Part shown: piece after piece, positions 42,890-64,000 of the stretch
Position numbering within the stretch: the first letter of the stretch is position 1
Layout of the letters: every line of letters starts with the position of its first letter
Source: Escherichia phage BME3
DNA length: 64,000 bases
Sequence record: PP239276.1
Strand: one strand, 5' to 3'
The notes under the pieces: generated by a model
What the model saw: the letters and a program-made list of their open reading frames with translations, nothing else
Told to the model about the DNA's origin: nothing
Databases searched by the model: none
Position numbers and translations under genes: made by a program

Positions 42890-43092
42890 TGGCATACAAT
42901 TACTATCTGGTATATTTTAACGAAACTAAGAAAAAAGACACAGGAACTAATGTTTATGCGGAATCCGAAGAACACGCAAAAGCTATTGGTTCAGTGCTTC
43001 TTTCTAGAATAGCAGGTGAAGAAATTCCTGTAGAGGCTATCTTTGCAGAAGTTGATCCTGATATTCAAGAAGATGATATTACCACTACTTAA
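42889..43092 (+). CDS. hypothetical protein
   Basis: 67-aa ORF. Confidence 0.4.
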   Translation: MAYNYYLVYFNETKKKDTGTNVYAESEEHAKAIGSVLLSRIAGEEIPVEAIFAEVDPDIQEDDITTT

Positions 43093-43095
43093 CTG

Positions 43096-43141
43096 TTGAC
43101 TTTAACGTTAAGGTAGTGCATACTTCCTGTAACAGAACAGG
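43096..43141 (+). promoter_or_regulatory. sigma70-like promoter (TTGACT-N17-CATACT) with downstream hairpin
   Basis: -35 TTGACT, 17-nt spacer, -10 CATACT; then CCTGT-AACAGA-ACAGG hairpin and AGGAGG RBS before the recombinase gene. Confidence 0.5.
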
Positions 43142-43149
43142 AGGGTATT

Positions 43150-43812
43150 ATGAAGTTTGTACTGTATCATCGACTTTCTAAGAAGAAACAACAAGGCAAC
43201 CAGTATGGTATAGAATCACAGGAAGCAGATATCCAACGCTTCCTGGATTCACAAGAAAATTATACTATTGTAGGTAGCTTTGCAGAGTTTTATTCTGGTA
43301 AAGGCGATTGGAAGCAACGTAGAGAGCTTGTAAAAGCTGTTAATCTTTGCAAAGAAACAGGTGCTACACTTGTTGTTGCTAAGGTTGACCGTCTTGGACG
43401 TAACACAGCTTCTGTTGCAACCTTGTTAGAGATGATTAATGTACGAATAGCAACTATGCCCTCCGCTGAAAATATGATAATAAATATTTTAGCAGTTCTG
43501 GCAGAAGAAGAGGCTCGTGCAATATCTGATCGTGTTAAGAAGAGCCTTAAAGTAGCAAAAGCGAAGGGAACGCTTCTTGGTGCAGCAAACCCTAAATACA
43601 AAAGAACAGATTATACGAAAACGGAAGAAGCAAAACGCTCAAAAGAGTTTGCGCTTTCTTTAAAAGATTCTTTAGTTGCATACAGAGCTTGTAAAACGCC
43701 ATATATGACGATTGCAAAACATCTGAATGAATCAGGAAAGAGAACTATTCGTGGGAGTTTGTTCGATGCCAAAGCGGTACAACGTCTTTGTGCAAAATTG
43801 AATATTAAATAA
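43150..43812 (+). CDS. serine recombinase (resolvase/invertase family)
   Basis: 220 aa; catalytic-domain motifs LYHRLSKKKQQ (Ser nucleophile), VVAKVDRLGRN; C-terminal HTH-like segment. Confidence 0.7.
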   Translation: MKFVLYHRLSKKKQQGNQYGIESQEADIQRFLDSQENYTIVGSFAEFYSGKGDWKQRRELVKAVNLCKETGATLVVAKVDRLGRNTASVATLLEMINVRIATMPSAENMIINILAVLAEEEARAISDRVKKSLKVAKAKGTLLGAANPKYKRTDYTKTEEAKRSKEFALSLKDSLVAYRACKTPYMTIAKHLNESGKRTIRGSLFDAKAVQRLCAKLNIK

Positions 43813-43821
43813 GGAGGAAAC

Positions 43822-44025
43822 ATGGCAGTTCAATCTTTTGAGGAGACTGTTAAAAAACAATTCCTATCGAAGCGAGCGATGGTTGAATTTTTGCATTTTC
43901 TCGAAGTAGATAGGGTACTTATTGAGACTACACCAGATGGTAACTGGCAAGTCTCGTATATTGCCACCAGGCATATCGTAGACAGTACGAAAGAAGAAAG
44001 TTCGGAAGTTACGGTTGCTAGTTAA
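43822..44025 (+). CDS. hypothetical protein
   Basis: 67-aa ORF with AAGGAGG RBS. Confidence 0.4.
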   Translation: MAVQSFEETVKKQFLSKRAMVEFLHFLEVDRVLIETTPDGNWQVSYIATRHIVDSTKEESSEVTVAS

Positions 44026-44036
44026 AGGAGTTAAAT

Positions 44037-44609
44037 ATGCGTTTAGCTTTTAACGGGAAGATAAGCACAGCAAACATATTGTCAGCAGTAGGATTATTAG
44101 GTAAAAAATTCACACCTTTCAGTTTACCAGTTTGTGTAGATTTTGATCATGTGTTTGATATTAATAATCCTTCACGTTGTATTGCCAGAAGTAATATTGA
44201 TAATCCAAGCGAAAATCTGTTTTATATTACTAAACCATCCCAAGCAATTTTGAATCAATGGGAAGCAGGTCTGATTAAACCAGGTAAATATTTTGCATTA
44301 CTACCTTGTAAATCATTGGCTATAGAGGACAGTCTAAACTATGCAAACAATCTTGTTGTTACAGCATTCATTGTCTCAGAAAAAGAAGAAACTGCGGTAC
44401 TTGCAAACACTGTTAAATCTTTGTATGATGCTTTGGGTGTTACTTACACTACCTTCGTTTGTGAAGATATTCCACATTGCGTTGAATTCGTGGTGAATGG
44501 TGTAACTGTATGTCGTGTAGAAACAACTCAAGACGAAGACGTTTTTATTACTGTAGCCGATGTAATATCTGAACCTGTGTTTAGCTACGCAGTTTCATTA
44601 ACACATTAA
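44037..44609 (+). CDS. hypothetical protein
   Basis: 190-aa ORF. Confidence 0.5.
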   Translation: MRLAFNGKISTANILSAVGLLGKKFTPFSLPVCVDFDHVFDINNPSRCIARSNIDNPSENLFYITKPSQAILNQWEAGLIKPGKYFALLPCKSLAIEDSLNYANNLVVTAFIVSEKEETAVLANTVKSLYDALGVTYTTFVCEDIPHCVEFVVNGVTVCRVETTQDEDVFITVADVISEPVFSYAVSLTH

Positions 44610-44619
44610 GGAGAAGGGG

Positions 44620-44946
44620 ATGAAAATAACGACAGAACAGGCTTTAATAGACAAAGGAAGGGAAATCTTAGAAAGTCATTTGGAGGATATTCAAAGGACT
44701 CCAGGGTATCTCGGCTGGCGTATACAAGAAGCCGTCGATTTTCTACCCCGTAAAAATAAAGAGATTGAAGTGAGATCTCTATTCCTCCTTGTTAAAGTAG
44801 ATGGTGACGCTATATACAAAGACGTAGCGTCTCACATTGAACAAATAGAAGAAAAAGCCTACAAAGAATTTGCAGATCTTGTTGTAGAACATAATATAGA
44901 AGGTAAAGTTAATATCTTTATACTTATGGATTTTGAGGAGAGTTGA
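44620..44946 (+). CDS. hypothetical protein
   Basis: 108-aa ORF. Confidence 0.45.
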   Translation: MKITTEQALIDKGREILESHLEDIQRTPGYLGWRIQEAVDFLPRKNKEIEVRSLFLLVKVDGDAIYKDVASHIEQIEEKAYKEFADLVVEHNIEGKVNIFILMDFEES

Positions 44947-45689
44947 TGCTAGTATATCAAGAAATTAGTGTAAAAGATGATCAAGACCTGTTTATTATTG
45001 GTGATTTACATGGTTGCTTTGATTTGTACCAGAAAGGTGTTAATACTTTAGGTATCCGAGATCAAGATGTTGTTGTATCTTTAGGCGATCTTACAGATCG
45101 CGGCAAGCAGAATTTTCGTTGTGTTGTTGAATTCACCAGAAAGCTAAATCGTTATGGTATTCGTGGAAATCATGAAGATATGATGATTAAAGGGTTGCTA
45201 GAAGGTGATAGACGATATTACGAATGTTGGTTTCAGAACGGAGGCCATACAGTTCTAGACGAGTGTGGAGAAGAGGGTGCAACTGCTCTTGCTTTGATGC
45301 TAGAAGATTTACCTGTTGTACTTGTTGTCAATTATCGTAATATGAAACTAGGCTTTATTCACGGGGGATATCCTTCAGTTTTGGAACATTTACCAGTGAC
45401 GGAAGTTTTGCCATTTTGTTCGAATATGAATAAAGAGCAAGTTTCTCGATTCACAGAATCTTTAATGTGGGATCGTGATATGATAGACTGCGCACTTGAA
45501 GGGATTCTTCTTCCTAGGGTTTCAGGAGTAGATTATGTATTTCACGGGCATTCTTATGTTCCTAAACCTGTAATTAGCAGTAATAGGGTATATATGGATA
45601 CAGGATCTTGCTTCAATGGTAATTTAACCTTTGCATATTTTGATGATTCAAATACGTTACAATTTTATTCTACTTTAGAGGAGGACTAA
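44943..45689 (+). CDS. PPP-family Ser/Thr protein phosphatase (lambda-phosphatase-like)
   Basis: 248 aa; GDLHGCFD, GDLTDRG, RGNHE, HGGY, FHGHS metallophosphatase motifs in canonical order. Confidence 0.8.
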   Translation: MMLVYQEISVKDDQDLFIIGDLHGCFDLYQKGVNTLGIRDQDVVVSLGDLTDRGKQNFRCVVEFTRKLNRYGIRGNHEDMMIKGLLEGDRRYYECWFQNGGHTVLDECGEEGATALALMLEDLPVVLVVNYRNMKLGFIHGGYPSVLEHLPVTEVLPFCSNMNKEQVSRFTESLMWDRDMIDCALEGILLPRVSGVDYVFHGHSYVPKPVISSNRVYMDTGSCFNGNLTFAYFDDSNTLQFYSTLEED

Positions 45690-46009
45690 TGTATAAAATC
45701 ACAATTAAAGAGACAGTAGGAAAACTTACGAAAGAAACTACTATTGAGACGGAAGATGTTGAGTTAGTTAAAGAGCTTTTATTTCCAAAACCAGAAATAA
45801 AAGATAATGATGAACAGTTGGATGAAGATAATGAGACAGCAGGTGATAAATGGAGGAAACAACTAGATGAGATTTGGAAAAAGCCTCAAGTAACGCCTCC
45901 ATTTGATCCTCGTAGACCTTATAATCCTTGGGAAATTGGAAGCCCTTGGTTTACGTACCCTATTACTCCAATTGTTAATCCAATTGTTACTCCCAATATT
46001 ACTTGTTAA
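45689..46009 (+). CDS. hypothetical protein
   Basis: 106-aa ORF; Pro-rich C-terminus. Confidence 0.4.
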   Translation: MYKITIKETVGKLTKETTIETEDVELVKELLFPKPEIKDNDEQLDEDNETAGDKWRKQLDEIWKKPQVTPPFDPRRPYNPWEIGSPWFTYPITPIVNPIVTPNITC

Positions 46010-46598
46010 GGAGAAAACCATGAGCGATTTATTCTACACAGGTGTTGGTAGCAGAGATATTACAGACGAAGAATGGGATACTATGGTAGCTGTTGCAAAA
46101 TGGTTATCTACATGGTTCATTTTACGATCTGGTAAAGCAGAAGGTGCAGATTCCGCATTTGAATGCGGGGTGTATGATAGTGGAAACAATACAAAGAAAG
46201 AAATATACATTCCTTGGCCTTCGTTTAAAGGTAATGAGATAGAGGGAGAGGTTATTGTTCTTGACAGACCAGATAGTGTAAACTATGCTCTAACCTTGCA
46301 ATATGCAAAAGAATTGCATCCAGCTTGGGACAGATTATCTCAAGGTGCTAAAAAATTACATCAAAGAAATATCCACCAAGTTCTTGGCAGAGATCTTGAG
46401 AATCCAAAACCATCTTGTTTTCTTTTAGCTTGTGCAAATACAGATAAAAATGGAGATCCTTTAGGTGGTACAAGAACAGCTTGGATGTTGGCTAAAAAGT
46501 TTAATGTTCCTTGTTTTAATATTCGAGGTAAAAGTAAAAAACAAATTTTCGAATTTATTAAACCTATTTTAGAGGAGAATGGTCTTGTCCAGAAATAA
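45903..46598 (+). CDS. DprA/SLOG-like Rossmann-fold protein
   Basis: AAGGAG RBS before internal Met near 46017 (MSDLFYTGVGSRDIT...LRSGKAEGADSAFE); GxGSR and SGxAxGxD resemble DprA/SMF/LOG family. Confidence 0.45.
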   Translation: MILVDLIILGKLEALGLRTLLLQLLIQLLLPILLVKEKTMSDLFYTGVGSRDITDEEWDTMVAVAKWLSTWFILRSGKAEGADSAFECGVYDSGNNTKKEIYIPWPSFKGNEIEGEVIVLDRPDSVNYALTLQYAKELHPAWDRLSQGAKKLHQRNIHQVLGRDLENPKPSCFLLACANTDKNGDPLGGTRTAWMLAKKFNVPCFNIRGKSKKQIFEFIKPILEENGLVQK

Positions 46599-47103
46599 TA
46601 TAAGCATCATTAAAGATAGCTTTATTGATGTAACAAACGATATTGTACCTACAATACAATATATAGTTGAGGCACAAGGTTTAAACTTTATACGTGATAA
46701 AGTTAAGATTGTTTTTCATAACACTCCAGGTTTTGTAACAGTGGGTTCAACAAAAACGCCGTGCTCTACAGATCTGATTACTTTAGACAAAAACTTAACA
46801 CAAGAAGAAGTAGAAATTCTTAACCTCTATTGGTTAGGTTTTAAAAGATACGAGGATACAGCTTTATCCAGAATGTCAACTATTTTAGCTAATATTCTGG
46901 TTCGGAAAATTTCTAAAATATGGGATGAAGAAAACCCAGATGAAATAGTTTTACACTTTGCTAAACCGGAAGACGGGGCATATGATATAGACACATCTGA
47001 AATGGCTTATGGGTTTATTATTTCTGGTAATGTATTACAGATGGAATCTTTATTGTATGTTGAGACAGTAAAACACAATAACAACTACGAGGAGGTTGTA
47101 TGA
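46579..47103 (+). CDS. hypothetical protein
   Basis: 174-aa ORF. Confidence 0.5.
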   Translation: MVLSRNNISIIKDSFIDVTNDIVPTIQYIVEAQGLNFIRDKVKIVFHNTPGFVTVGSTKTPCSTDLITLDKNLTQEEVEILNLYWLGFKRYEDTALSRMSTILANILVRKISKIWDEENPDEIVLHFAKPEDGAYDIDTSEMAYGFIISGNVLQMESLLYVETVKHNNNYEEVV

Positions 47104-47357
47104 AAGGTTTAGAGTTTAACTTTGTAGATGCGTGGGAAGGATGGGATGAACTAGGAGTAGGGGATTTATGTTTTTATGATGTTACCTTGAAGGAAGAATA
47201 CAAACATCTAGCTCCTAGTGAAGATTGCGATGTGATTCTATCTATTCTATTAAGTCAGTCTATAGTGCAATTTGATTTTCTAAAAGGTAGTGAGTGTATT
47301 GAAAGTAAAGCATTCCGTTTAGAAGTTTCTCTTGGTGAAGAAGTTCCTGTAGAATAA
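47100..47357 (+). CDS. hypothetical protein
   Basis: 85-aa ORF. Confidence 0.45.
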   Translation: MKGLEFNFVDAWEGWDELGVGDLCFYDVTLKEEYKHLAPSEDCDVILSILLSQSIVQFDFLKGSECIESKAFRLEVSLGEEVPVE

Positions 47358-47360
47358 TAT

Positions 47361-47384
47361 AAACCCGCTTCGGCGGGTTTTTTG
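47361..47384 (+). terminator. intrinsic terminator
   Basis: AAACCCGCTTCGGCGGGTTTTTTG. Confidence 0.6.
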
Positions 47385-48968: not shown

Positions 48969-49577
48969 ATGACTCAAAAAGTTGCATATCAAGTAGATCG
49001 TGAAGATGGTGAAGGTAGTGTTGTAGTTTTTGATACACATGGTCTTGCAGCAAGACGCAAAGGTGCTTGTCTACTGGACATTGGTGGTGAAGATGAATAC
49101 TGCACTGTACGTAGAGTAAAAGAATTTGATCAATATGCTGAAAAAGGTTTTGTACCCGTGAAAGCACTATTAGAAGCTGGATGGTGGATACCTAGTGCAC
49201 ATGATTATGATATTTTGGAAGATACAGATGAATTCAACAGCGAGGATTTTGTTTTTTCTCTGGATGAAAAATGCGTTTGGAAAAACTGGGATGAAATGGA
49301 ACGCCATGCTTATTTTATAAACGAAGCATTAGATCGTAAAACTTGGTTTGAAAATACAGTTAAAGCAGCGTATCCTCAATTTACTTTTACACAGTTTTGG
49401 GGTGGCCCACATCATATTACTCATACAGCATATTTCGAGTTCCCAGGCTCACGTTATAAAGGTACTGTTTATTGGGATTGGGACGAGGACAAAGAACCTT
49501 CTGCTCAAGATTTCCGTTGCTATGTTTGTCAAGGTGATCAAGAAGCCCTTGACAAGTACCTTAAAAGTCTGGTATAA
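48969..49577 (+). CDS. hypothetical protein
   Basis: 202-aa ORF. Confidence 0.5.
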   Translation: MTQKVAYQVDREDGEGSVVVFDTHGLAARRKGACLLDIGGEDEYCTVRRVKEFDQYAEKGFVPVKALLEAGWWIPSAHDYDILEDTDEFNSEDFVFSLDEKCVWKNWDEMERHAYFINEALDRKTWFENTVKAAYPQFTFTQFWGGPHHITHTAYFEFPGSRYKGTVYWDWDEDKEPSAQDFRCYVCQGDQEALDKYLKSLV

Positions 49578-49578
49578 T
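49549..49578 (+). promoter_or_regulatory. sigma70-like promoter (TTGACA-N18-TATAAT)
   Basis: Perfect -35 and -10 hexamers embedded in the 3' end of ORF 48969..49577. Confidence 0.45.
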
Positions 49579-49595
49579 CTGTAAAACTTAACCAA

Positions 49596-49618
49596 AGCCC
49601 CAATCAGGGGCTTTATTT
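49596..49618 (+). terminator. hairpin terminator/attenuator
   Basis: AGCCCC-AATCA-GGGGCT followed by TTATTTAT, ~20 nt downstream of the promoter -10. Confidence 0.5.
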
Positions 49619-52406: not shown

Positions 52407-52466
52407 AATACCTCCTATTGTTTATGTTAGAAGTGTTTATAACAGATAAAGAGCATATATACAAGA

Positions 52467-52487
52467 AAACCCGCCGAAGCGGGTTTA
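52467..52487 (-). terminator. intrinsic terminator
   Basis: AAACCCGCTTCGGCGGGTTT hairpin with T-run on minus strand, directly after ORF 52491..52814. Confidence 0.45.
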
Positions 52488-58324: not shown

Positions 58325-58751
58325 TTCGATTTTGTTCTATGTCAATTGCAGCATCTAAGATAAGTTTTAACGCTTCAAATTGCAAGTCTTCTTCTAAAGA
58401 GAAGACATATAAAACAACGGACTCCAAGTAAGACAGCACCCCAAGACTAAGAGTTGCAATCTCTACTCCTGCATCGGAGAAGCCTGTTTGCAAAACTTCT
58501 TTGAAGAAACGTTGTTTATCAACAATAGCAGATAAAATAAGCGTTTTACGCTCCTCTGCTGATCGCACTGTGCTGTATATGTTGCTAAAAGAGTCCAGCC
58601 ACATTTTGATCATACCTTGGCGGTACATAAGGATTTCAATATCAGCCAACATATTATTTATCCTCTGGAGAGAGATTTGTATTAATTTGATAGTAAAAAT
58701 CAAAATCCTTGTGTTGATCGCACCATTCTTGAGCCTCTTTAAATGACGCAA
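58308..58751 (-). CDS. hypothetical protein
   Basis: 147-aa ORF. Confidence 0.45.
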   Translation of the reverse strand: MRHLKRLKNGAINTRILIFTIKLIQISLQRINNMLADIEILMYRQGMIKMWLDSFSNIYSTVRSAEERKTLILSAIVDKQRFFKEVLQTGFSDAGVEIATLSLGVLSYLESVVLYVFSLEEDLQFEALKLILDAAIDIEQNRIDSFE

Positions 58752-58826
58752 ATTGCATAGTGAATGTTGCCATCCATGTGTTCATATTTTTATTGAACTT
58801 GTCGATAAAAAATGTTTGCATTTTCA

Positions 58827-59411
58827 TTACACATCCTCCATTTGGAACATCTCTTTGTGGTTAGAATAGATCTGTTTGAAAATCTTGTCAAGACGTTCAT
58901 ATGATTCTTTATGCTCTTGTTTCCATCCTTGATTTCGGATTTTATCTGCCAGGTCATAAACCTCGCATAAAACTTTGGCAAAGTTGGTATTATTTATAGC
59001 ACAAGCCTCAAAACCTTGAACTAAACCCTCTACATCGTACCACGTATAGTCAGAGTCACTAGGAGGCTTTCCTGCATCGGCTAAACGTTGCCTCACCCAT
59101 TCGATACGTTTTTCATTCAAATGGCACTTACCTTCTCTACACTCTTGTTCTAATTCTTCTTTAGATTCATTGAATGGGTGAAGGACAGGTAGCTCTGCTT
59201 TTTGCAATTGCTCCAGATATTCTCCTACAATGCGCATAGCTTCACTGTGTGTACACTTTCTACCTGTGTGCCAGTAACGGAAGATACTTTCTGTTAAACA
59301 GATGTTTTTACTAAACATCGCATTGTCTTTAACATTCGATCTATTAACCCAGTCTATATAATATACATAAAACTGCAATAATTCATAACTGCTTGGTATA
59401 ATTTTACTCAT
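58827..59411 (-). CDS. hypothetical protein (family A, copy 1)
   Basis: 194 aa; shares LHPFN and RIEWVRQRL-type segments with the 60035..60385 and 62125..62547 products. Confidence 0.5.
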   Translation of the reverse strand: MSKIIPSSYELLQFYVYYIDWVNRSNVKDNAMFSKNICLTESIFRYWHTGRKCTHSEAMRIVGEYLEQLQKAELPVLHPFNESKEELEQECREGKCHLNEKRIEWVRQRLADAGKPPSDSDYTWYDVEGLVQGFEACAINNTNFAKVLCEVYDLADKIRNQGWKQEHKESYERLDKIFKQIYSNHKEMFQMEDV

Positions 59412-62721: not shown

Positions 62722-63139
62722 ACCCCCTTTTCATAAGCGTAAAGTCAATAATATCAATAACTTGCCGCAAAATACTGCTCGCTTGCGAGAGGTGCTTAAC
62801 GCGATTTTCAGCGCCCCCCGATTTCTGCCGACCGTCCCCCTCAAATATCAATGAGAATAATTATCATTTGCATTATCATTCAATGACTTATAAGACTTTT
62901 GATTATTTTCTGAGCGAAAAAGGTGCTACTCACAACAAAACAGATAAATTCTAAGTAAATCAATGACTTGGCAAGTCTAAACATCTATATACACCTTGCC
63001 AAATGAAATGATCCTGCGTGAAATAGTGCTACCCGTGGAAGATAGCTGATAATGATTATCATTTGCATATTTTCTATACTATAAAACGCCCTAAAAATCA
63101 AGATAATTCTACTTTATTGCGCTTTTAAGAAAGTAGGCT
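62722..63139. repeat. direct repeat copy 1 (~417 bp)
   Basis: Near-identical to 63584..64000 (about 3 mismatches, all near the 5' end); contains inverted repeat TTGGCAAG-N21-CTTGCCAA and hairpin CTCGC-TTG-CGAG. Confidence 0.8.
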
Positions 63140-63583: not shown

Positions 63584-64000
63584 CACCCTTTTCATAATCG
63601 TAAAGTCAATAATATCAAAAACTTGACGCAAAATACTGCTCGCTTGCGAGAGGTGCTTAACGCGATTTTCAGCGCCCCCCGATTTCTGCCGACCGTCCCC
63701 CTCAAATATCAATGAGAATAATTATCATTTGCATTATCATTCAATGACTTATAAGACTTTTGATTATTTTCTGAGCGAAAAAGGTGCTACTCACAACAAA
63801 ACAGATAAATTCTAAGTAAATCAATGACTTGGCAAGTCTAAACATCTATATACACCTTGCCAAATGAAATGATCCTGCGTGAAATAGTGCTACCCGTGGA
63901 AGATAGCTGATAATGATTATCATTTGCATATTTTCTATACTATAAAACGCCCTAAAAATCAAGATAATTCTACTTTATTGCGCTTTTAAGAAAGTAGGCT
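63584..64000. repeat. direct repeat copy 2 (truncated by window end)
   Basis: Matches 62722..63139 base-for-base over its visible length apart from ~3 substitutions; may extend beyond the window. Confidence 0.8.

What the first reader, a model, noticed from the sequence alone, without database searches (positions are those of the whole stretch)
43096..43812. Serine recombinase in a virulent-type genome, preceded by promoter-hairpin-RBS cassette
A resolvase/invertase-family enzyme (catalytic HRLS, VDRLGRN) is encoded in the early block with its own consensus-like promoter. No integrase-type attachment site or invertible segment with flanking inverted repeats is visible nearby, so its substrate is unknown. 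Possibilities include concatemer resolution, inversion of a distant segment, or a homing-type function.
Basis: partly seen in the sequence, partly recalled or inferred. Interest (0 to 1): 0.4.

Follow-up and report, generated by a model that had tools for sequence, protein, structure and literature searches.

The report
Orphan serine recombinase of phi92-like phages
This is an intact, tightly regulated DNA-recombining enzyme that every phi92/phAPEC8-type lytic coliphage keeps, already labelled "DNA invertase" in databases although no invertible DNA exists, so its target is still unknown.

Summary
ORF 43150-43812 (+) encodes a 220-aa serine recombinase, 100% identical to phage phi92 gp053, which GenBank already calls "DNA invertase". 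All catalytic residues are present. A long helix E and a four-helix C-terminal HTH follow the catalytic core, so it is not a remnant.

- **Domain type:** the C-terminal domain is the "recombinase-domain" type of large serine recombinases, not the Hin/Gin HTH.
- **Conservation:** the gene is under strong purifying selection (dN/dS about 0.08). It is present in all ~130 Stephanstirmvirinae records examined.
- **Two loci:** it sits at different places in sister genera, each genus showing an empty site at the other's locus. Every copy carries its own TTGAC(A/T)-N16/17-xAxAxT promoter.
- **RBS occlusion:** in 7 of 13 lineages a hairpin of unrelated sequence occludes the ribosome-binding site. Its 5' arm lies at or upstream of the predicted transcription start, like fold-back inhibition in IS10 or occluded RBSs in T4.
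- **No substrate found:** no inverted-repeat-flanked segment exists. The only inversion polymorphism lacks border repeats. No prophage copies occur in 5,426 E. coli genomes.

The nearest cellular relatives sit on plasmids, one beside replication and partition genes. A resolvase-type action on phage DNA is the best guess, at low confidence. This is ordinary in kind, with the function still open.

The parts
43096..43101 (+). -35 hexamer TTGACT of the recombinase gene's own sigma-70-type promoter
   Evidence: A TTGAC(A/T) hexamer at the equivalent position precedes the homologue in all 13 lineages.
43119..43124 (+). -10 hexamer CATACT, 17-nt spacer. The predicted transcription start is about 43130-43133.
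   Evidence: The -10 is xAxAxT in all lineages. The transcription start is inferred, not mapped.
43113..43151 (+). RBS-occluding hairpin. Outer stem 43113-43119 / 43145-43151, inner stem 43123-43130 / 43137-43144, loop AACAGA. The 5' arm overlaps the -10 and ends at about the predicted start.
   Evidence: z -2.0 to -2.4; dG to open -14..+3 is 11.6 kcal/mol in read-through RNA against 5.8 in RNA starting 6-9 nt after the -10. One search gives the background distribution.
43139..43145 (+). Shine-Dalgarno sequence AGGAGGG, inside the 3' arm of the hairpin
   Evidence: The RBS is also annotated in phi92.
43150..43812 (+). Serine recombinase CDS (220 aa, stop included), identical to phi92 gp053
43150..43464 (+). 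Catalytic core (about aa 1-105) with Y6, R8, S10, Q24, E46, R57/58, D80, R81 and R84
   Evidence: alignment to Tn3/gamma-delta resolvase and conservation in 39 homologues. (AF2 model, pLDDT 89).
43471..43563 (+). Long helix E (aa 108-138) carrying E121, D127 and R128, which correspond to gamma-delta E118, E124 and R125
43633..43797 (+). C-terminal four-helix HTH domain (aa 162-216) of the large-serine-recombinase 'recombinase domain' type. The putative recognition helix is DAKAVQRLCAKL.
   Evidence: helices 162-170, 172-180, 185-194, 207-216. (PF07508 in 26 of 39 homologues). (marginal match to SPbeta integrase residues 203-244).

Best explanation
SHOWN. The gene encodes a complete small serine recombinase: catalytic domain, helix E, and a short 'recombinase-domain'-type HTH. 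It is a near-universal early gene of the Stephanstirmvirinae (phi92-like and phAPEC8-like lytic myoviruses) and is kept under strong purifying selection. It is a self-contained expression unit. Each copy carries its own host-type promoter, and in about half of the lineages a hairpin occludes the RBS.

INFERRED, regulation. The 5' arm of that hairpin lies in or upstream of the promoter core. Transcripts reading in from upstream genes would therefore fold back and hide the RBS, or be terminated. Transcripts started at the gene's own promoter would lack the arm and be translated. The enzyme would then be made only briefly and at a low level, early in infection.

INFERRED, function (low confidence). 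It works as a resolvase-type recombinase, not an invertase. Dimers would bind a short dyad site present once per genome unit. They would exchange strands through phosphoseryl intermediates between copies of that site on replicating phage DNA, that is on circularised or multimeric forms of the terminally repeated genome. This would convert multimers to unit circles or the reverse. No conserved accessory gene is involved.
For: **Identity**
- PF00239 matches at E 8.4e-22 and PHROG 125 at E 1.3e-31.
- All catalytic residues align to Tn3/gamma-delta resolvase and are invariant or nearly so in 39 homologues.
- The AF2 model has pLDDT 89.3, with helix E and a four-helix C-terminus. Foldseek's best matches are Bxb1 integrase, gamma-delta resolvase and Sin.
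- It is not a remnant. The 150 best of 5,984 cluster representatives are almost all 210-245 aa and match over the full length.

**Selection and distribution**
- dN/dS is about 0.08 against Klebsiella phage FKP3. Within the genus there are 2-4 synonymous and 0 non-synonymous changes.
- The gene is present in 106 'Escherichia' records. The neighbouring gene gp051 and a 25-kb structural/replication query each also match 106.

**Regulation**
- A promoter precedes the gene in 13 of 13 lineages.
- RBS opening costs 11 kcal/mol or more in 7 of 13 lineages, against 3.4% of window ORF starts.
- The stems have unrelated sequences while the recognition helix is unchanged. The constraint is therefore at the RNA level, not an operator.
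- KP13-16 and Shewanella phage 1/40 instead place a terminator at the promoter.

**Resolvase rather than invertase**
- No inverted repeat of 22 bp or more exists apart from terminator hairpins, in a full genome or in the window.
- The closest non-phage relatives (about 35% identity, full length) are plasmid-borne. One lies beside rep and parA genes on a 7.3-kb plasmid.
- The genome has direct terminal repeats.
- PMC10282059 guesses the same role for the phAPEC8-type homologue, without data.
Against: - No recombination site was identified. The dyads next to the gene differ between lineages that share the same recognition helix.
- Other terminally repeated phages manage without such an enzyme.
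- tblastn returned no rV5 or PVP-SE1 match.
- Resolving concatemers would work against concatemer-dependent packaging.
- The plasmid homologues are themselves uncharacterised.
- The transcription start is predicted, not measured. Four of the 13 lineages show neither strong RBS occlusion nor a terminator (L019, L020, FKP3, phAPEC8).
- Catalytic activity is untested.
Confidence: 0.35

Rival explanations
1. A selfish or passenger cassette. The promoter-plus-gene unit persists and occasionally relocates, possibly by its own action, and contributes little to phage growth.
For: - The gene occupies different loci in sister genera, and each genus has an intact empty site at the other's locus.
- In 11 phAPEC8-type records the gene lies 14.6-16 kb from gp051 on the opposite strand. 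In phi92-type records the two are adjacent.
- More distant phages place it in yet other contexts: between NAMPT and a large uncharacterised ORF that precedes an rIIB homologue, and next to DprA.
- It carries its own promoter and is insulated from read-through, as transposase and T4 homing-endonuclease genes are.
- No partner gene is conserved with it.
- One copy, in phage Schickermooser, carries many frameshifts.
Against: - There is no presence/absence polymorphism in about 130 genomes.
- Its divergence between genera (57%) matches that of the neighbouring gene gp051 (59%). This fits vertical descent with a single relocation.
- dN/dS is 0.08.
- No terminal repeats or target-site signature appear at the cassette borders.
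- Downstream genes share its transcript, so the unit is not isolated at its 3' end.
Confidence: 0.2
2. The enzyme acts on DNA other than the phage's own. The target would be a site in the host chromosome, a resident prophage or plasmid, or a co-infecting competitor, as part of host takeover, anti-defence or exclusion.
For: - It is expressed early from a host-type promoter.
- No second phage site could be found.
- The recognition helix is conserved between E. coli and Klebsiella phages.
Against: - There is no positive evidence of any kind.
- Homologues occur in Vibrio, Shewanella and Cellulophaga phages, whose hosts are unrelated.
- Rearranging a cell that will lyse within minutes gives no obvious benefit.
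Confidence: 0.15
3. A true DNA invertase, as annotated, that flips a distant segment of the phage genome.
For: - Database annotation calls it an invertase, and it matches PHROG 125 'DNA invertase'.
- One 0.87-kb three-gene block, outside the window, is inverted in about 24 of 55 genomes.
Against: - That block has no inverted repeats at its borders.
- No Hin/Gin-type HTH_7 domain is present in this protein or in 39 relatives.
- There are no inverted-repeat pairs beyond terminators.
- The 25 kb holding the tail-fibre genes is collinear in all genomes.
Confidence: 0.05
4. Mainly a DNA-binding regulator or architectural protein, for example an operator-binding repressor of early promoters, with catalysis secondary.
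For: - Resolvases repress promoters inside res sites (established knowledge for Tn3/gamma-delta).
- A 30-bp dyad overlapping the strongest early promoter is perfectly conserved between genera.
Against: - Every catalytic residue is conserved over deep divergence, which implies that chemistry is under selection.
- Nothing links the protein to that dyad.
Confidence: 0.1

Closest known systems
Uncharacterised ~220-aa 'recombinase family proteins' (catalytic domain plus short recombinase-domain HTH), common on plasmids and in phages
   Same: They match over the full length at 35-60% identity and have the same size and domain order. One homologue sits beside replication and partition genes on a 7.3-kb plasmid.
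   Different: Those proteins are themselves unstudied. Here the carrier is a strictly lytic 146-kb phage with terminal repeats.
Large serine recombinases (phage integrases such as Bxb1, SPbeta SprA, phiC31; CcrB)
   Same: The best Foldseek match is Bxb1 and the best NCBIfam match is the first 225 residues of CcrB. The C-terminal HTH is of PF07508 type in 26 of 39 homologues.
   Different: The protein has only 220 aa, with no zinc-ribbon domain and no coiled coil. No attP or lysogeny module is present, and no prophage copies occur in 5,426 E. coli genomes.
Resolvases and invertases of the Tn3/gamma-delta, Sin and Hin/Gin type
   Same: The catalytic residues and helix E are shared.
   Different: Sequence matches are weak (E about 1e-5 to 1e-3). 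There is no HTH_7 domain, no multi-subsite res and no invertible segment.
Fold-back inhibition of IS10 transposase, and hairpin-occluded RBSs of T4 genes e, soc and I-TevI (from my own knowledge, not tested here)
   Same: A hairpin hides the RBS in transcripts that enter from upstream, and the proximal promoter starts inside or beyond the 5' arm.
   Different: In T4 the proximal promoter is a late promoter, whereas here it looks like an early host-type promoter. The transcription start has not been mapped.

Membership tests
Serine recombinase superfamily | Resolvase catalytic domain (PF00239) above Pfam's threshold | tested here: met
   78.3 bits against a cutoff of 23.3, residues 4-141.
Serine recombinase superfamily | Nucleophilic Ser10 plus the R8, D67, R68, R71, E118 and R125 equivalents | tested here: met
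   S10, R8, D80, R81, R84, E121 and R128 are present and invariant or nearly so in 39 homologues.
Serine recombinase superfamily | Long helix E after the catalytic core | tested here: met
   The AF2 model has a helix at 108-138, with pLDDT about 90.
Serine recombinase superfamily | Site-specific cleavage and rejoining through a phosphoseryl link | not testable with these tools
   This needs biochemistry.
DNA invertases (Hin/Gin/Cin/Pin) | C-terminal HTH_7-type DNA-binding domain | tested here: not met
   No HTH_7 hit at E<=1 for this protein. HTH_7 is not among the 25 most-matched Pfam families in 39 homologues, whereas PF07508 matches 26 of them.
DNA invertases (Hin/Gin/Cin/Pin) | Invertible segment bounded by ~26-bp inverted crossover sites, next to the gene | tested here: not met
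   The only perfect inverted repeats are terminator copies.
DNA invertases (Hin/Gin/Cin/Pin) | Fis-dependent enhancer inside the 5' part of the gene | not tested
   No reliable sequence test was available.
Large serine recombinases / serine integrases | Full recombinase domain, zinc-ribbon domain and coiled coil (400 aa or more) | tested here: not met
   The protein has 220 aa and the model ends after a four-helix HTH. Relatives are 210-245 aa.
Large serine recombinases / serine integrases | Integration into a host attB (prophage state) | tested here: not met
   No phi92-like DNA occurs in 5,426 complete E. coli genomes.
Tn3/Sin-type resolvases | Multi-subsite res next to the gene | tested here: inconclusive
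   Only 57 bp lie upstream, and the dyads there differ between lineages that share the same recognition helix.
IS607-type serine transposases | N-terminal MerR-like HTH followed by a C-terminal catalytic domain | tested here: not met
   The catalytic domain is N-terminal.
~220-aa recombinase-family proteins (catalytic domain plus short RD-type HTH) | Full-length similarity, same length and same domain order | tested here: met
Fold-back (read-through) inhibition of translation | Stable hairpin pairing the SD and AUG | tested here: met
   dG to open is 11.6 kcal/mol, 4th of 119 in the window. It is 11 kcal/mol or more in 7 of 13 lineages.
Fold-back (read-through) inhibition of translation | The gene's own transcript starts inside or beyond the 5' arm | not testable with these tools
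   The start is predicted from the -10 position only. It needs 5'-end mapping.

The most novel reading that the evidence does not exclude
The recombinase is the engine of cassette mobility in these phages. It would recombine at promoter/hairpin junctions that bound early-gene cassettes, in an integron-like way or as a single-gene self-mobilising element. This would explain its own relocation between genera and the mosaic early arms.
Probability: 0.05. Interest if true: 0.8.

Novelty: new member of a known kind. Interest (0 to 1): 0.35.

Why it matters
Phages of this group are used and proposed for therapy, and a "recombinase/invertase" gene raises safety questions. The evidence here is that it is neither an integrase nor an invertase of any visible segment. 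It is nevertheless a conserved, active-looking enzyme with an unknown target. Finding that target would show what a site-specific recombinase does for a strictly lytic phage. It might also yield a compact 220-aa recombinase that needs no accessory gene. The recurrent promoter-inside-hairpin design is a compact insulator of gene expression and can be tested directly.

Tried and rejected
1. **Whole-genome inverted-repeat search** (full genome A150 and the window). Only terminator hairpins appeared.

2. **Whole-genome comparison of A150 with PD211, plus 25-kb queries against all phage records.** One 0.87-kb inverted block was found. It has no border repeats, so it is not a switch.

3. **A 20-bp direct repeat, GGTGAAGAA(A/G)TTCCTGTAGA, at 43016 and 47336, bracketing the gene.** It lies in coding sequence (GEE(I/V)PVE) and is not found in FKP3 at the upstream position (the only one checked). 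I treat it as chance.

4. **The upstream dyad as a recombination site or operator.** There is no second copy in the genome, and the dyad sequences differ between lineages with an identical recognition helix.

5. **KP13-16 as a third locus.** Rejected: the local order methyltransferase, gp054, recombinase is preserved.

6. **Dyads conserved between the two genera.** Besides terminators and a tRNA, the clearest is TTGTCAAGG-N12-CCTTGACAA at 49526-49555. It is single-copy, and nothing links it to the enzyme.

7. **Resemblance of TTCCTGTAAC to a gix half-site** (recalled from memory). The arm spacing is wrong and the DNA-binding domain is not Gin-like, so I dropped it.

8. **C-terminal profile against PDB sequences.** The top hits were spurious designed repeat proteins. 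Only a marginal match to SPbeta integrase remained.

9. **Literature.** One paper guesses at concatemer resolution. No experiments were found.

Full report
**What is there**

The window is about 99% identical to Escherichia phage phi92 and some 55 other Justusliebigvirus genomes (subfamily Stephanstirmvirinae). ORF 43150-43812 (+) encodes 220 aa and is 100% identical to phi92 gp053. GenBank annotates that gene as "DNA invertase / putative recombinase, resolvase family". The gene is therefore already on record. What was open is whether it is intact, what kind of serine recombinase it is, and what it acts on.

**Protein**

- **Family matches.** Pfam Resolvase (PF00239) covers residues 4-141 at E 8.4e-22. 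PHROG 125 "DNA invertase" matches at 1.3e-31 and PHROG 95 "integrase" at 1.5e-25.
- **Catalytic residues.** Alignment to Tn3 and gamma-delta resolvase, and to 38 homologues, gives these equivalences:
  - Y6, R8 and S10 keep the gamma-delta numbering.
  - E46 corresponds to D36, and R57/58 to R45.
  - D80, R81 and R84 correspond to D67, R68 and R71.
  - E121, D127 and R128 correspond to E118, E124 and R125.
  
  All of these are invariant or nearly so.
- **Structure.** An AlphaFold model (pLDDT 89.3) shows the catalytic alpha/beta core, a 31-residue helix E (108-138), a flexible linker, and four helices at 162-216. Foldseek's best matches are Bxb1 integrase, gamma-delta resolvase and Sin.
- **C-terminal domain.** It has no Hin/Gin HTH_7 signature. 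PF07508, the "Recombinase" domain of large serine recombinases, is detected in 26 of 39 family members. A profile of the C-terminus marginally matches residues 203-244 of SPbeta integrase. NCBIfam's best match is the first 225 residues of CcrB, although every NCBIfam score is far below its cutoff.
- **Not a remnant.** An exhaustive search gives 5,984 cluster representatives at E<=1e-3. The best 150 are nearly all 210-245 aa and match end to end. This is a stable small architecture.

**Selection and distribution**

Within the genus only synonymous changes are seen (2-4, against 0 non-synonymous). Against Klebsiella phage FKP3 (78% amino-acid identity) dN/dS is about 0.08.

tblastn finds the protein in 161 phage records:
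- 100% identity in the phi92 group
- 78% in FKP3
- about 57% in phAPEC8-type phages (Phapecoctavirus)
- 44-51% in other Klebsiella relatives
- about 25-49% in large Vibrio, Shewanella and Cellulophaga phages

The count of "Escherichia" records is 106. The neighbouring gene gp051 also gives 106, and so does a 25-kb structural/replication query. The gene is therefore effectively universal in the subfamily. No phi92-like DNA occurs in 5,426 complete E. coli genomes. This fits a strictly lytic lifestyle and argues against an integrase role.

**Position in the genome**

In phi92-type phages, FKP3, 05F01, KP13-16 and four metagenomic relatives, the gene follows a DNA methyltransferase and the small gene gp054.

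In phAPEC8 the homologues of gp054 and gp052 are adjacent, separated by 45 bp containing a terminator-like hairpin, with no recombinase between them. The phAPEC8 recombinase lies in the other early arm, just after the homologue of phi92 gp013. In phi92, gp013 is followed directly by gp014.

In 11 Phapecoctavirus records the recombinase and gp051 are 14.6-16 kb apart on opposite strands. In phi92-type records they are about 230 bp apart.

Divergence between the genera is alike for the recombinase (57%) and for gp051 (59%). The simplest history is vertical descent with one relocation of a promoter-plus-gene unit. No neighbouring gene travels with it, so there is no conserved accessory factor. 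More distant phages place it in still other early-gene contexts.

**Promoter and hairpin**

The promoter in the window is only a 9/12 match, and such matches are not enriched locally. However, a TTGAC(A/T), 16-17 nt, xAxAxT arrangement ends 24-35 nt before the start codon in each of the 11 lineages measured (the two most distant phages show the same layout), and the surrounding sequence cannot be aligned between them.

The hairpin pairs the Shine-Dalgarno sequence and the first bases of the AUG. The free energy needed to open positions -14 to +3 is as follows.

| Lineage | dG to open the RBS in read-through RNA (kcal/mol) |
|---|---|
| Window | 11.6 |
| L018 | 11.5 |
| L012 | 14.6 |
| L013 | 15.2 |
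| 05F01 | 15.9 |
| VPMCC14 | 16.8 |
| L021 | 18.4 |
| Background: 119 ORF starts in the window | median 4.9; 95th percentile 10.05; 3.4% at 11 or more |

- **Stem sequences.** They are unrelated between lineages, while the putative recognition helix (DAKAVQRLC) is unchanged among the close relatives. The constraint is therefore on RNA pairing, not on a protein-binding operator.
- **Position of the 5' arm.** In each case it lies in the promoter spacer, over the -10, or within the first few bases after it. RNA begun 6-9 nt after the -10 opens its RBS at 2.8-7.5 kcal/mol.
- **Other solutions.** KP13-16 places an intrinsic terminator just before the promoter. Shewanella phage 1/40 wraps a terminator-like hairpin around the -10.
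- **Reading.** Expression is insulated from transcription entering from upstream. From my own knowledge, this is the logic of IS10 fold-back inhibition and of T4 genes e, soc and I-TevI. The transcription start is predicted, not measured.

**Search for a substrate**

- **Inverted repeats.** Self-comparison of a complete genome (A150) and the repeat scan of the window find none of 22 bp or more, other than copies of palindromic terminators.
- **Genome comparisons.**
  - The window is collinear with phi92 and A150.
  - A150 against PD211 shows a single inversion. It is a 0.87-kb block of three small genes at a divergent-transcription switch point, outside the window.
  - About 24 of 55 genomes carry the block in the other orientation. 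Its borders coincide with gene ends and have no inverted repeats, so it is not a recombinase-driven switch.
  - The 25 kb holding the tail-fibre and polymerase genes is collinear in all genomes.
- **The dyad upstream of the gene** has no second copy.
- **Dyads conserved between phi92-type phages and phAPEC8.** In the 47 kb compared, the clearest one apart from terminators and a tRNA is TTGTCAAGG-N12-CCTTGACAA at 49526-49555. It sits inside a 44-nt run of perfect identity, against about 70% identity in the flanks. It overlaps a perfect consensus promoter, is single-copy, and nothing ties it to the enzyme.

**Mechanism and rivals**

*Shown:* an intact, selected, early-positioned serine recombinase with insulated expression and no invertible segment.

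*Inferred:* it acts in a resolvase-like manner on a site present once per genome unit in replicating phage DNA. The points in favour are these:
- The closest non-phage relatives (about 35% identity, full length) are plasmid-borne, and one lies beside rep and parA genes on a 7.3-kb plasmid.
- The genome has terminal repeats.
- There is no inversion substrate.

I give this reading about 0.35. The rivals are:
- a passenger or self-mobile cassette (0.2)
- a host- or competitor-directed enzyme (0.15)
- a mainly regulatory DNA-binding role (0.1)
- a true invertase (0.05)

**Comparison and novelty**

The protein is a member of the serine recombinase superfamily. More narrowly, it belongs to the large, unstudied class of ~220-aa "recombinase family proteins" whose HTH is of the large-serine-recombinase type. 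It fails the defining tests for Hin/Gin invertases, large serine integrases and IS607 transposases. It is a new, already annotated member of a known kind.

Four results are useful: the "invertase" label is unsupported, the gene is a core gene, it has moved once between genera, and its translation is guarded by a recurrent promoter-in-hairpin design.

Noticed in passing
window 62725-63139 and 63586-64000: A 415-bp direct repeat (99.3% identical, period 861 bp), with the second copy cut by the window end. It corresponds to phi92 record positions 1-415, and phi92's left terminal repeat is annotated as 1-343. The window end coincides with phi92's physical left end.
   Followed up: partly
window 63048-63066 and 63909-63927: Near-consensus Fur-box-like sequence GCAAATGATAATCATTATC, 17 of 19 matches to the E. 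coli Fur box as I recall it, in each copy of the terminal repeat region. There are 4 matches (two sites, each matched on both strands) where 0.05 are expected by chance. Similar AATGATAAT motifs recur near the genome ends.
   Followed up: partly
window 49512-49555 (dyad at 49526-49555); promoter 49549-49578; hairpin 49594-49614: A 44-nt run is perfectly conserved between phi92-type phages and phAPEC8, in a gene whose flanks are about 70% identical. It contains the dyad TTGTCAAGG-N12-CCTTGACAA. The dyad overlaps the -35 of a 12/12 consensus promoter with an extended -10, which is followed at once by a terminator-like hairpin and an RBS. It is single-copy. It may be an operator.
   Followed up: partly
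L004:8396-9267 (A150 58396-59267; phi92 about 130.7-132.7 kb, gp212-217), outside the window: An 0.87-kb block of three small genes, at a switch between divergent transcription units, is inverted in about 24 of 55 Justusliebigvirus genomes. Its borders have no inverted repeats.
   Followed up: yes
L003:43133-50000 and L004:1-2500 (A150 43.1-52.5 kb), outside the window: At least six direct copies of a promoter-plus-hairpin element in the early arm beyond the terminal repeat. On the coding strand each reads TTGACA-N17-TAAAGT, then about 11 nt, then GGCGGGAAATGGTTTCCCGCC. This recalls the promoter-early-stem-loop cassettes of T4-type phages.
   Followed up: partly
window 43016-43035 and 47336-47355: A 20-bp direct repeat GGTGAAGAA(A/G)TTCCTGTAGA at the 3' ends of gp054 and gp045, bracketing the recombinase operon. 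It codes for GEE(I/V)PVE and is not found in FKP3 at the upstream position. It is probably chance.
   Followed up: yes
window 47360-47381 and 52466-52487: Identical 22-bp palindromic terminators (TAAACCCGCTTCGGCGGGTTTT and its complement) lie 5.1 kb apart. The same terminator is also conserved in phAPEC8.
   Followed up: no
window 44037-44609: gp051 is widely annotated as 'histidyl tRNA synthetase' but has no NCBIfam match at E<=0.01. The label looks unsupported.
   Followed up: partly
L009:1395-2046 (phage Schickermooser NC_048196.1): The recombinase homologue here carries many single-base frameshifts and is annotated as a 128-aa fragment. It is either a pseudogene or poor sequence.
   Followed up: partly
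L025:3001-4454 (Shewanella phage 1/40); window 43150-46600: The recombinase lies within 0.2-3 kb of a DprA-like recombination-mediator gene in phi92-type phages, KP13-16 and Shewanella phage 1/40. This may be a loose linkage.
   Followed up: no
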